Below the pieces are notes generated by a model. That model saw nothing but the letters and a program-made list of their open reading frames with translations, ran no database searches and had not been told where the DNA came from. Both the position numbers and the translations under genes were made by a program. DNA of 1,705 nt. Origin: Naegleria gruberi (taxonomy: Eukaryota). The stretch lies in assembly GCA_000004985.1 (NCBI GenBank), contig GG739344.1; one strand, 5' to 3'. Positions 15-1,705 of this stretch are shown in pieces; the stretch's first letter is position 1, and every line of letters starts with the position of its first letter.

Positions 15-23
15 AAGGTAAGT
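15..23 (+). other. Perfect 5' splice donor consensus AAG|GTAAGT on the plus strand at the window edge
   Basis: Plus-strand aaggtaagt at 15-23. One plus-strand frame, ttg tgt gaa ata aag, is open from the window start up to it. This is compatible with the 3' end of a plus-strand exon lying mostly outside the window, converging on the minus-strand 69-227 segment. Confidence 0.15.
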
Positions 24-68
24 GATTGAATGGGCAGTAGTATTAAAATTACTTCCTTATTATCAAGT

Positions 69-227
69 TTAACATGGACGTCCTTTTCCTTCATTGAACA
101 CAAGATCTTTCCAATCCTCGAAATCTGCCAAAGTTAATTGATCTGGATTGAGAATAGTTTCTCTTGCAATGATCTGACATCGTACAATTGGCCAATCCTG
201 TACCAACAAAACTGTAAGGTTGTCTTG
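69..227 (-). CDS. Putative 3'-terminal coding exon with no in-frame ATG. Translation: QDNLTVLLVQDWPIVRCQIIARETILNPDQLTLADFEDWKDLVFNEGKGRPC*. Family not recognised.
   Basis: Fifty-two stop-free codons on the minus strand, bounded by TGA (rc of 229-231) and TAA (rc of 69-71). The translation is protein-like and non-repetitive. G1 enrichment is 17 of 35 G overall and 12 of 23 in the distal part. GC3 is about 29%. Candidate acceptor ttttgttggtacag| ends at 198 on the minus strand, so the exon would start at 197 (DWPIV...). Confidence 0.35.
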   Translation of the reverse strand, partial: QDNLTVLLVQDWPIVRCQIIARETILNPDQLTLADFEDWKDLVFNEGKGRPC

Positions 228-303
228 TCAACACTGGGGGTTCTGGTCTGTAAATGCAGTGATAGTCACTCTGGCGTTGACAAGCAAATTTGTTGACAAT
301 CAT
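91..303 (-). CDS. The ORF-track 70-aa ORF (MIVNKFACQ...RSCVQ). It is probably not the real reading frame.
   Basis: It overlaps the 69-227 segment in another frame. It shows no codon-position-1 G enrichment (4 of 12 G in its unique 5' part). Its 3' part translates as low-plausibility peptide (SRSINFGRFRGLERSCVQ), whereas the alternative frame gives LNPDQLTLADFEDWKDLVFNEGKGRPC. It is kept only because it is the sole ATG-ORF in the window. Confidence 0.12.
   Translation of the reverse strand: MIVNKFACQRQSDYHCIYRPEPPVLTRQPYSFVGTGLANCTMSDHCKRNYSQSRSINFGRFRGLERSCVQ
224..284. repeat. Inverted repeat of 9 bp, cttgtcaac at 224-232 and gttgacaag at 276-284, with a further gttgacaatc at 292-301 that recurs at 1675-1684
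   Basis: The inverted copies are exact reverse complements with a 43-nt spacer. The 10-mer gttgacaatc occurs twice in the window. Confidence 0.2.
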
Positions 304-778: not shown

Positions 779-1026
779 ATGTAAAAGTTGCTGCCTTCCT
801 AGTTCTCAACCATTACTCCACTCTTAGGATATTCTCATTGAAAGATCATTTTGTATCTTTGAAGCTGCTGACATTTCGGTCTGGAACTTGTTCTACTACT
901 AAAAATAAACATTTTATTCTAAGTTTGCTTATTTTGTTGGATTCATTGTATGTTGCTAGTGGTTGGGTAATAGACAGTGTAATAGTTGGTTTTTAGTTGG
1001 CTTTGTTCCTTCTCAACCCCATCCAC

Positions 1027-1095
1027 AACCATTCAGTTATTACATGGTAAACATTCAGTGACTATTCGGTGAACATTTAGTTTCTTTGCGGCTTT
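1027..1095. repeat. Degenerate tandem direct repeat, three units of about 23 bp
   Basis: Units are aaccattcagttattacatggtaa, aacattcagtgactattcggtgaa and acatttagtttctttgcggctttt. Unit 1 versus unit 2 match at about 17 of 23 positions and unit 2 versus unit 3 at about 14 of 23. The core is CATTCAGT / CATTCAGT / CATTTAGT at a 22-23 bp period. On the minus strand this reads CTRAATGKT x3, about 85-150 nt downstream of the putative stop at 1177. Confidence 0.35.
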
Positions 1096-1171
1096 TAGTG
1101 TGTTGGTATTTGACTGAAAGTTTCCCTTAATTTACCATTACAATTTTCATAATTTGAGTAAAACTGATTAA

Positions 1172-1177
1172 TTTATT
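1172..1177 (-). terminator. Polyadenylation signal AATAAA on the minus strand, overlapping the TAA stop
   Basis: Plus-strand tttatt at 1172-1177 is AATAAA on the minus strand, within gTAAATAAAtt directly following the stop codon of the 1177-1323 segment. Confidence 0.35.
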
Positions 1178-1323
1178 TACAATTGTTGTGCTTCTTCTGA
1201 GTCTGATTGACCATTATCTGAATAAAGATCTGCACCATCTGATTCCATATCAAGCAAATTAATTGCGTCTGCTGAAGGTTGTGTTGCTCTTGTCAGGTTT
1301 TTTGATCCAATCTTTAACAAGTG
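1177..1323 (-). CDS. Putative 3'-terminal coding segment in a different frame from 1259-1471, ending in an acidic Ser/Asp/Glu-rich tail. Translation: ...AINLLDMESDGADLYSDNGQSDSEEAQQL*
   Basis: A minus-strand frame is open from 1323 down to a TAA at 1177-1179 (plus-strand tta). From about 1258 down to 1180, 15 of 20 G residues lie at codon position 1 (GAT, GAA, GCA, GGT, GAC codons) and GC3 is about 20%. That is a strong coding periodicity. The upstream part of this frame (1323-1260) lacks the periodicity, and there the previous frame carries it instead. Confidence 0.4.
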   Translation of the reverse strand, partial: HLLKIGSKNLTRATQPSADAINLLDMESDGADLYSDNGQSDSEEAQQL

Positions 1324-1471
1324 TTAAAAAAACAACTTGTTCATCTTCTGCAACATAGCTCTGCAATGAAGAGAATTGACCATTGTTGGCTCTGACATGT
1401 TCTCTTGTTGGTGAAGAGGTAGAAGGTTGAATTTCTGTTGCTTGAATTGAGGATTGAACTCCTTCTATATA
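1259..1471 (-). CDS. Putative coding segment with no in-frame ATG, probably an internal or 5'-proximal exon. Translation: YIEGVQSSIQATEIQPSTSSPTREHVRANNGQFSSLQSYVAEDEQVVFLTLVKDWIKKPDKSNTTFSRRN*. Protein family not recognised.
   Basis: Seventy stop-free codons on the minus strand, bounded by TAA (reverse complement of 1472-1474) upstream and TAA (rc of 1259-1261) downstream. There is no Met codon, so the ORF track does not list it. About 19 of about 29 G residues fall at codon position 1 (chance expectation one third) and GC3 is about 26%. Both are typical of genuine coding sequence in an AT-rich genome. The last 15-20 codons lose this periodicity (see the frame-switch finding). Confidence 0.4.
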   Translation of the reverse strand, partial: YIEGVQSSIQATEIQPSTSSPTREHVRANNGQFSSLQSYVAEDEQVVFLTLVKDWIKKPDKSNTTFSRRN

Positions 1472-1494
1472 TTAGAAACTTCGACATTGGAATT

Positions 1495-1530
1495 CTTCTT
1501 TCTTTTTGGCTTCTCTTTTTTCTTTAATTC
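1495..1530 (-). promoter_or_regulatory. Purine-rich (GA/A-rich) leader on the minus strand, a polypyrimidine CT tract on the plus strand
   Basis: Plus-strand cttctttctttttggcttctcttttttctttaattc reads on the minus strand as gaattaaagaaaaaagagaagccaaaaagaaagaag, immediately 5' of the minus-strand ATG at 1485-1487. An A/G-rich leader of this kind is typical of 5'UTRs and upstream regions in AT-rich eukaryotes. Confidence 0.3.
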
Positions 1531-1569
1531 TATTAGACTCTTTAAAAGAACTCCACAGATTGCTGAATA

Positions 1570-1581
1570 TCTTACTGACAT
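1570..1581 (-). other. ATG-TCA followed by a consensus 5' splice donor GTAAGA on the minus strand (candidate micro first exon or 5'UTR intron donor)
   Basis: Minus strand reads ttaATGTCAGTAAGAtattcag. ATG is rc of 1579-1581 and GTAAGA is rc of 1570-1575, matching the eukaryotic GTRAGT donor consensus 79 nt downstream of the TATA box. A possible acceptor tttctaatatatag| at 1465-1478 would give a 111-nt A-rich intron, but the resulting frame does not match the periodicity-supported frame. Confidence 0.2.
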
Positions 1582-1659
1582 TAACAATAGCTCTAATTAA
1601 TTGTTGGAAAATAATTAATAAATAATTAAGGATAAACTTCACTTACAATACTTTGCACG

Positions 1660-1667
1660 TATTTATA
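1660..1667 (-). promoter_or_regulatory. TATA box TATAAATA on the minus strand
   Basis: Plus-strand tatttata at 1660-1667 is TATAAATA on the minus strand, a canonical eukaryotic TATA octamer. It lies 79 nt upstream of a minus-strand ATG (1579-1581) and about 175 nt upstream of the ATG at 1485-1487, with the right orientation and spacing for a core promoter of the minus-strand coding region. Confidence 0.3.
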
Positions 1668-1705
1668 TGTATCCGTTGACAATCCATTAACATGTTTTCT
1701 GAGCA

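What the first reader, a model, noticed from the sequence alone, without database searches (positions are those of the whole stretch)
1177..1471. Coding periodicity jumps between two minus-strand frames at a T6/A6 homopolymer (1298-1303)
Two adjacent minus-strand segments both show strong codon-position-1 G enrichment, but in different frames. The first segment runs 1471->~1300 and ends in TAA at 1259-1261. The second runs ~1258->1180 and ends in TAA at 1177-1179. The switch maps to the minus-strand run caAAAAAAcc (plus-strand T6 at 1298-1303). Removing one A joins the two into a single 97-codon reading frame (no in-frame start codon), ...VVFLTLVKDWIKNLTRATQPSADAINLLDMESDGADLYSDNGQSDSEEAQQL*. 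The only in-zone GT...AG candidate is gttaaag...ccttcag, 47 nt. It gives the wrong phase and has a poor donor with T at position +3. Possible explanations are a homopolymer indel in the assembly, a genuine frameshifted pseudogene, a slippery-run translational frameshift, or a short intron I could not identify.
Basis: seen in the sequence. Interest (0 to 1): 0.6.

Follow-up and report, generated by a model that had tools for sequence, protein, structure and literature searches.

The report
Frameshifted copy of a Naegleria orphan gene
The two out-of-phase coding signals are the two halves of one ancestral reading frame of a small, Naegleria-specific multi-copy gene, split in this copy by a real 2-base deletion just downstream of the A-run; with three more frame-breaking indels upstream, this is most likely an ordinary decayed gene copy.

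Summary
Minus-strand 1468..1292 (frame 0) and 1290..1180 (frame 1) both show strong G enrichment at codon position 1 (19/59 and 16/37; at most 2 of 10,000 shuffles reach this). All coordinates and the fused peptide reproduce.

Both segments match annotated Naegleria gruberi proteins NAEGRDRAFT_79192 and NAEGRDRAFT_80659. In those proteins they form one continuous sequence, ...VKDWIKKPDTRATQPSADAINLL...EEAQQL*.

The junction is KKPD|TRAT. The window therefore lacks 2 nt (AC) at 1292/1291, six to seven bases downstream of the A6 run. The homopolymer is not the lesion.

An independent short-read metagenome contig (L001) is 100% identical across 1406-1109, including the A6 run and the missing AC. 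The lesion is therefore not a homopolymer or long-read assembly artefact.

Against the same paralogues the window carries three further frame-breaking indels upstream: +1 at ~1582, -5 at ~1543 and +TA at 1470-1469. These follow a conserved 54-nt GT..AG intron (1646-1593). A Willaertia magna homologue supports the paralogues' frame across the first two of these.

Best reading: a pseudogenised or frameshift-variant copy of a Naegleriidae-specific orphan gene family. Programmed frameshifting and a hidden intron are not supported. Ordinary; low interest.

The parts
1647..1705 (-). 3' end of the upstream exon (minus frame 2), encoding (L)RKHVNGLSTDTYKYVQSI. It runs off the window edge.
   Evidence: 1700..1647 is identical to residues 86-103 of P0004 and 37-54 of P0001. 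Codon 1703-1701 reads L where all three NEG-M models have F.
1593..1646 (-). 54-nt spliceosomal intron, GTAAGTGA...TTAATTAG.
   Evidence: The frameshift-aware protein-to-DNA alignment places the only long gap here, with GT..AG ends. P0003 (NAEGRDRAFT_76782) ends ...VQSIVSEVYP*, which is read-through into this intron as translated from the window.
1581..1582 (-). Frame break 1: one extra A. The window has TGT TAA TGTC where the paralogues need TGT TAT GTC (C-Y-V). It creates an in-frame TAA three codons after the acceptor.
   Evidence: The Willaertia homologue aligns through this point in the paralogues' frame.
1540..1546 (-). Frame break 2: 5 nt missing. The paralogues have F-K-R-K-S; the window has TTT A AAG AGT.
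   Evidence: Willaertia magna has SIKHKTLIE opposite SFKRKSLIE, which supports the paralogues' frame.
1469..1470 (-). Frame break 3: an extra TA in a (TA)n run. The window has AATATATAGAAGG; the paralogues need AAT ATA GAA GG (N-I-E-G).
1292..1468 (-). Segment A of the finding (minus frame 0): IEGVQSSIQATEIQPSTSSPTREHVRANNGQFSSLQSYVAEDEQVVFLTLVKDWIKKPD.
   Evidence: 57 of 59 residues are identical to P0001 and P0004. G at codon position 1 is 19/59.
1298..1303 (-). The A6 (plus-strand T6) run, encoding K-K in frame 0. It is intact relative to the paralogues' protein (KKPD is retained) and is not the lesion.
   Evidence: The run has the same length in the short-read contig L001.
1291..1292 (-). 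Frame break 4, which is the finding's frame switch: 2 nt (AC) missing. The window has CCT GAC A AGA GCA; the paralogues need CCT GAC ACA AGA GCA (P-D-T-R-A).
   Evidence: The same state is present in L001 and in the database protein P0005.
1180..1290 (-). Segment B of the finding (minus frame 1): RATQPSADAINLLDMESDGADLYSDNGQSDSEEAQQL, the ancestral acidic C-terminal tail.
   Evidence: 37 of 37 residues are identical to P0001 and P0004. G at codon position 1 is 16/37.
1177..1179 (-). The ancestral TAA stop codon of the gene.
   Evidence: P0001 and P0004 end ...EEAQQL, immediately before it.
1259..1261 (-). Out-of-frame TAA reached in frame 0 only because of the 2-nt deletion (...KKPDKSNTTFSRRN*).
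   Evidence: The peptide KSNTTFSRRN has no counterpart in the paralogues.

Best explanation
The window carries, on its minus strand, the 3' part of a copy of a small multi-copy gene known only from Naegleria. The annotated N. gruberi NEG-M models are NAEGRDRAFT_80659, NAEGRDRAFT_79192 and NAEGRDRAFT_76782, and there is a distant homologue in Willaertia magna. In the intact copies, the terminal exon after a 54-nt intron is a single reading frame ending ...VKDWIKKPDTRATQPSADAINLLDMESDGADLYSDNGQSDSEEAQQL*. In this copy a 2-nt (AC) deletion at 1292/1291 throws the last 37 codons into another frame, so two adjacent stretches keep their codon periodicity but in different phases. Three further indels upstream (+1, -5, +2) also break the frame. 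With the canonical splice acceptor the message would stop after ...VQSISYC*, so the region of the finding is most likely not translated in this copy. It is a recently decayed gene copy (pseudogene or null allele). Shown: the homology, the position and size of the indels as inferred from protein, and the presence of the AC-less state in independent short-read data. Inferred: that the intact form is ancestral, and that this copy is non-functional.
For: P0001 (NAEGRDRAFT_79192) was found with window peptides. Its 90%-identity cluster also holds P0004 and P0003, which sit on other scaffolds (530 kb, 362 kb and 7 kb), and P0005. P0001 and P0004 read continuously through both segments. The frameshift-aware alignment gives one 54-nt GT..AG intron plus four frame-breaking indels, with 57/59 and 37/37 residue identity in the two segments. 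L001, a MEGAHIT k127 contig from ENA ERZ929261, is 100% identical to window 1406-1109, including the A6 run and CCTGACAAGAG. It differs in the 3' flank by substitutions and by 2-, 64- and 20-nt indels, so it is an independent sequence with the same lesion. The Willaertia magna protein P0002 aligns to P0004 residues 52-137 (39% identity, E 1e-13), straight through the first two upstream break points in the paralogues' frame, so the window's state there is derived. Segment B keeps significant periodicity and a 37-codon open frame, which would be unexpected if it had always been non-coding.
Against: No DNA of the intact paralogues could be fetched, so the indels are inferred from protein sequence, not from a nucleotide alignment. 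Four indels against only about 3 amino-acid replacements is an unusually indel-rich pattern for natural decay. Only the AC lesion is confirmed in independent data, so the three upstream breaks could still be assembly errors in the window's source. The Willaertia homologue does not reach the finding's junction. The coding part is 100% identical between the window and L001 while the flank has diverged, which could hint at residual constraint, gene conversion or simply chance. There are no expression data.
Confidence: 0.8

Rival explanations
1. Assembly or sequencing indel error: the gene is intact in the organism, and the frame breaks, including the one in the finding, are artefacts of the assembly the window comes from.
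For: All four breaks sit in short low-complexity contexts (AA, a purine-rich A/G run, (TA)n, ACAC), and indels outnumber amino-acid substitutions. This resembles uncorrected long-read error. Three of the four breaks have no independent confirmation.
Against: The break that causes the finding is present, base for base, in an independent short-read MEGAHIT contig from a different sample, whose flank differs from the window. The A6 run has the same length there. The database protein P0005 is exactly the 47-aa frame-1 ORF of this state.
Confidence: 0.1
2. The frameshift variant is still a functional allele or paralogue. It would encode a shortened protein, for example using another start or acceptor and ending ...KKPDKSNTTFSRRN*. 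The identical coding sequence in the window and L001 would then reflect selection.
For: Window and L001 show 0 differences over about 300 nt (the coding part plus the first 70 nt of flank), against 4 substitutions and 4 indels in the next roughly 300 nt.
Against: With the conserved intron acceptor the frame hits TAA after three codons. The frame-0 stretch upstream of segment A ends in TAA at 1474-1472, and segment A has no in-frame ATG. The conserved N-terminal domain (shared with Willaertia) would be cut off from it. Expecting about 3 differences in 230-300 nt makes zero only marginally unusual.
Confidence: 0.07
3. Recoding: programmed +1 ribosomal frameshifting or transcriptional slippage at the A6 run joins the frames, or an unrecognised short intron removes 1 (mod 3) nucleotides.
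For: An A6 run lies 6 nt upstream of the break. Formally, 52 GT/GC..AG pairs would restore an open frame.
Against: The paralogues keep K-K-P-D after the run and join the frames by two extra bases, so the fused peptide implied by slippage (DWIKNLTRA) is not the family's sequence. A_AAA_AAC is in phase with frame 1, not with the incoming frame 0. The 88 nt downstream fold no better than shuffles (z = +0.91). A6 is short for transcriptional slippage (own knowledge). Every candidate intron would delete residues that are coding in the paralogues, and none has a donor like the confirmed GTAAGT. Three other frame breaks upstream have no such site.
Confidence: 0.02

Closest known systems
Naegleria gruberi NEG-M hypothetical proteins NAEGRDRAFT_80659 (XP_002674185.1, 241 aa) and NAEGRDRAFT_79192 (XP_002679016.1, 193 aa)
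   Same: About 97% amino-acid identity over every alignable block. The intron position is the same (after ...YKYVQSI), as are the C-terminal acidic tail and the stop codon.
   Different: The window needs four frame corrections (+1, -5, +2, -2 nt) and has about 3 amino-acid replacements (F>L, P>Q, A/D>E). It cannot encode the full protein.
NAEGRDRAFT_76782 (XP_002668307.1, 109 aa, on a 7.2-kb scaffold)
   Same: Its model ends ...YKYVQSIVSEVYP*, which is exactly the intron read-through also encoded by window 1700..1629.
   Different: It has F where the window has L at 1703-1701, so it is not the same sequence. Its downstream exon state is unknown.
Willaertia magna hypothetical protein ABK040_003205 (KAL9649525.1, 150 aa)
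   Same: Homologous over the N-terminal and middle part (P0004 residues 52-137; 39% identity; E 1e-13 pairwise, 2.8e-7 library-wide). This shows the family is a real Naegleriidae gene and fixes the ancestral frame at the first two upstream breaks.
   Different: It has no counterpart to the C-terminal half that holds the finding.
ENA metagenome contig L001 (ERZ929261, ERR1078381, PRJEB11402; k127_325338) and its 47-aa gene call P0005
   Same: Identical to window 1406-1109, including the frameshifted state. P0005 equals the window ORF 1177..1320.
   Different: The 3' flank differs by 4 substitutions and by 2-, 64-, 20- and 2-nt indels. The TTG 'start' of P0005 is an artefact of prokaryote-style gene calling.

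Membership tests
NAEGRDRAFT_80659/79192/76782 protein cluster (Naegleriidae-specific orphan family, no Pfam domain) | High sequence identity to cluster members over the alignable length | tested here: met
   Blocks of 18/18, 24/24, 57/59 and 37/37 identical residues. The window's 47-aa ORF is itself a member (P0005) of the 90% cluster.
NAEGRDRAFT_80659/79192/76782 protein cluster (Naegleriidae-specific orphan family, no Pfam domain) | Conserved intron after ...YKYVQSI | tested here: met
   A 54-nt GT..AG gap at 1646-1593.
NAEGRDRAFT_80659/79192/76782 protein cluster (Naegleriidae-specific orphan family, no Pfam domain) | An uninterrupted terminal-exon reading frame, that is, an intact gene | tested here: not met
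   Four frame-breaking indels, with TAA three codons after the acceptor. The window is therefore a derivative (pseudogene or null copy) of the family, not an intact member.
Programmed ribosomal frameshift site | A slippery sequence in phase with the incoming frame, and a product matching the family's protein | tested here: not met
   A_AAA_AAC is in phase with frame 1, not frame 0. The family's peptide keeps KKPD and then T, which slippage at the A-run cannot produce.
Programmed ribosomal frameshift site | A stable stimulatory RNA structure downstream | tested here: not met
   MFE is -12.6 kcal/mol against a shuffle mean of -15.1; z = +0.91.
Programmed ribosomal frameshift site | Conservation of the frameshift arrangement in homologues | tested here: not met
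   Both full-length paralogues are in a single frame. Only the near-identical L001 shares the shifted state.
Spliceosomal intron bridging the two frames | GT..AG ends, length of 1 mod 3, and removal of sequence that is absent from homologous proteins | tested here: not met
   All 52 formal candidates delete residues present in P0001 and P0004. None has a GTAAGT-like donor.
Processed or decayed pseudogene (general category) | Lack of transcription or translation of this copy | not testable with these tools
   No RNA-seq, EST or proteomic resource for Naegleria is available here.

The most novel reading that the evidence does not exclude
The frameshift-bearing form (window plus L001, with identical coding sequence despite diverged flanks) is a maintained variant of a dispersed multi-copy Naegleria gene. 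The gene might be the cargo of an undescribed mobile or gene-converting repeat. Its reading frame would be switched on and off by indels at short repeats (A2, (TA)n, (AC)n), or rescued by +1 frameshifting at the A6 run, rather than being a dead copy.
Probability: 0.04. Interest if true: 0.55.

Novelty: already known. Interest (0 to 1): 0.1.

Why it matters
It matters little. The result is a clean worked example of codon periodicity in two phases correctly flagging a frameshifted gene relic. It also corrects the site of the lesion, which is a 2-nt deletion and not the conspicuous homopolymer. For annotation of Naegleria genomes, it shows that the orphan family NAEGRDRAFT_80659/79192/76782 is multi-copy, has at least one decayed copy, and has a Willaertia homologue, so it is a real lineage-specific gene and not a spurious ORF. 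No new mechanism is implied.

Tried and rejected
This was a false negative of the sparse index, because a composite query found the roughly 95%-identical P0001.
- Searching again with P0001 returned only P0001 itself.
- The exhaustive phmmer search added only the Willaertia protein.
- Pfam gave no significant domain for the window peptides or for P0001, P0002 and P0004. The PDB sequence search gave nothing.
- The single-sequence AlphaFold model of P0004 was unusable (mean pLDDT 40), so no fold search was run.
- DNA of the intact paralogues could not be retrieved.
- Five other window ORFs are not on record as gene calls.
- JGI metagenome scans by DNA pattern, with or without the AC, and by protein found nothing.
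- Literature searches for the locus tags, accessions and PRJEB11402 found nothing.
- Rfam, tRNA and repeat scans of the window found nothing relevant.
- A ciliate-type genetic code (TAA read as Gln) and tiny 15-22-nt introns were considered from the sequence and dropped once the Naegleria homologues explained every frame change.
- A weak resemblance between the minus-strand ORF 72-227 and the family's C-terminus is not significant (44 of 2000 shuffles).

Full report
**1. Checking the observation**

The window is AT-rich (about 35% GC) and looks eukaryotic. Every coordinate in the finding reproduces:
- the T6 run at 1298-1303 on the plus strand;
- the minus-strand TAA stops at 1259-1261 and 1177-1179;
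- the 97-codon fused frame obtained by deleting one A.

The periodicity is more than chance.
- In 1468..1292 (minus frame 0), G occupies codon positions 1/2/3 in 19/6/3 of 59 codons.
- In 1290..1180 (minus frame 1), the counts are 16/3/3 of 37.
- Only 2 and 1 of 10,000 within-segment shuffles reach these values in any phase.
- A sliding window shows the dominant phase flipping between about 1340 and 1310.

**2. What it is**

A composite of the window's stop-free stretches did hit one protein, P0001. This is Naegleria gruberi hypothetical protein NAEGRDRAFT_79192, 193 aa. The earlier miss shows that the index is sparse.

P0001's 90%-identity cluster has three other members:
- P0004 (NAEGRDRAFT_80659, 241 aa, on a 362-kb scaffold);
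- P0003 (NAEGRDRAFT_76782, 109 aa, on a 7-kb scaffold);
- P0005, a 47-aa ENA gene call that is exactly the window's ORF 1177..1320.

P0001 and P0004 both read ...VAEDEQVVFLTLVKDWIKKPDTRATQPSADAINLLDMESDGADLYSDNGQSDSEEAQQL. The finding's two segments are therefore one continuous protein in other genomic copies.

**3. Anatomy**

tblastn shows that P0001 is a mosaic of all three minus-strand frames of the window. A frameshift- and intron-aware protein-to-DNA alignment that I wrote gives the following layout on the minus strand:

| Window position | Feature |
|---|---|
| 1700..1647 | Exon end, RKHVNGLSTDTYKYVQSI |
| 1646..1593 | 54-nt intron, GTAAGTGA...TTAATTAG |
| ~1582 | Frame break 1: one extra A (TGT TAA TGTC where TGT TAT GTC is needed) |
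| ~1543 | Frame break 2: five bases missing (F-K-R-K-S becomes TTT A AAG AGT) |
| 1470-1469 | Frame break 3: an extra TA in ATATATAG |
| 1292/1291 | Frame break 4: two bases (AC) missing (CCT GAC A AGA where CCT GAC ACA AGA is needed) |

Between the breaks, residue identity to the paralogues is 18/18, 24/24, 57/59 and 37/37.

The fourth break is the finding's frame switch. It lies six to seven bases downstream of the A6 run. The run itself encodes the retained K-K of KKPD, so it is not the lesion.

With the conserved acceptor the window reads ...VQSI SYC*. This copy therefore cannot make the full protein, and the region of the finding is probably untranslated here.

**4. Real sequence or artefact?**

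The exact 47-aa product led to L001, a 510-nt MEGAHIT contig (k127_325338) from ENA metagenome assembly ERZ929261 (ERR1078381, PRJEB11402).
- L001 is 100% identical to window 1406-1109, including the A6 run and CCTGACAAGAG.
- Further into the 3' flank it differs by four substitutions and by 2-, 64-, 20- and 2-nt indels.

L001 is thus an independent sequence, from short reads, carrying the same AC-less state. This argues strongly against a homopolymer or long-read assembly error for the finding's break. The three upstream breaks are not covered by L001 and remain unconfirmed.

**5. Which state is ancestral?**

An exhaustive phmmer search of 1.84 billion representatives found only one further relative, P0002 (E 2.8e-7). 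P0002 is Willaertia magna hypothetical protein KAL9649525.1. Willaertia belongs to the same family (Naegleriidae) as Naegleria.

P0002 aligns with P0004 residues 52-137 (39% identity, E 1e-13). The alignment runs straight through the first two upstream break points in the paralogues' frame: SI-YCYVSKIF against IRYSYCSKLF, and SFKRKSLIE against SIKHKTLIE. This shows two things:
- the family is a real, lineage-restricted gene;
- the window's state at those two points is derived.

The Willaertia protein does not reach the finding's junction. There, the ancestral status of the continuous frame rests on two points:
- two independent NEG-M copies have it;
- segment B retains significant periodicity and a 37-codon open frame.

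**6. Rivals**

- *Programmed frameshifting.* The A_AAA_AAC heptamer is in phase with the outgoing frame, not the incoming one. The family peptide cannot be produced by slipping on the A-run. The downstream 88 nt fold no better than shuffles (z = +0.91). Three other breaks upstream have no such site.
- *Hidden intron.* There are 52 formal GT/GC..AG pairs that restore the frame. Each deletes residues that are coding in the paralogues, and none has a donor like the confirmed GTAAGT.
- *Assembly error.* This is contradicted for this break by L001. It remains possible for the other three breaks. The high ratio of indels to substitutions (4 indels against about 3 replacements) is the main oddity.
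- *Functional truncated allele.* There is no in-frame ATG and there are upstream stops. The identity between window and L001 over about 300 nt is only marginally unusual.

**7. Comparison with what is known, and novelty**

The protein family has no Pfam domain and no PDB relative. The single-sequence AlphaFold model is unusable (pLDDT 40). The locus tags do not appear in the searchable literature.

The phenomenon, a frameshifted decayed copy of a multi-copy lineage-specific gene, is a well-known kind of thing. Nothing here calls for a new mechanism.

**8. Verdict**

Confidence is about 0.8 that this is a genuine frameshifted, non-functional copy. Interest is low (0.1).

The decisive missing step is a nucleotide alignment with the NEG-M loci and read or transcript mapping. 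Neither could be done because no Naegleria DNA or RNA resource was reachable.

Noticed in passing
window 72-233, minus strand: A 52-codon stop-free stretch (QDNLTVLLVQDWPIVRCQIIARETILNPDQLTLADFEDWKDLVFNEGKGRPC*) preceded by an acceptor-like ttacag. It is possibly the terminal exon of a neighbouring gene about 950 nt downstream of the pseudogene. It weakly resembles the family's C-terminus (LVKDW...), but 44 of 2000 shuffles score as well. It has no Pfam hit.
   Followed up: partly
window 813-1108 compared with L001 299-510: The 3' flank differs between the window and the metagenome contig by a 64-nt indel (window ~1026-963), a 20-nt indel (~930-911), two 2-nt indels and 4 substitutions. The preceding roughly 300 nt are identical. 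This means either two strains or two genomic copies of a repeat.
   Followed up: partly
protein cluster of P0001: Three NEG-M gene models on three scaffolds are at least 90% identical, so this is a dispersed multi-copy gene. The models disagree on the acceptor (SI|SYCY against SI|YCY). One of them (NAEGRDRAFT_76782) ends by reading into the intron, which suggests inconsistent annotation or a further defective copy.
   Followed up: no
window 1472-1642, minus frame 0: The lysine-rich stretch SFKESNRIKEKREAKKKEEFQ looks like coding sequence. According to the paralogues and the Willaertia homologue it is the wrong frame. The true frame reads KSLIELKKKEKPKRKKNSNVEVSNI.
   Followed up: yes
window 17-25, plus strand: A consensus-like splice donor, AAG|GTAAGTG, lies on the plus strand at the very left edge of the window. 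It could be chance or the end of a plus-strand exon lying outside the window.
   Followed up: no
tool behaviour: The word-indexed protein search missed a roughly 95%-identical database protein when given a 97-aa query. Negative results from that index for short queries are weak evidence.
   Followed up: yes
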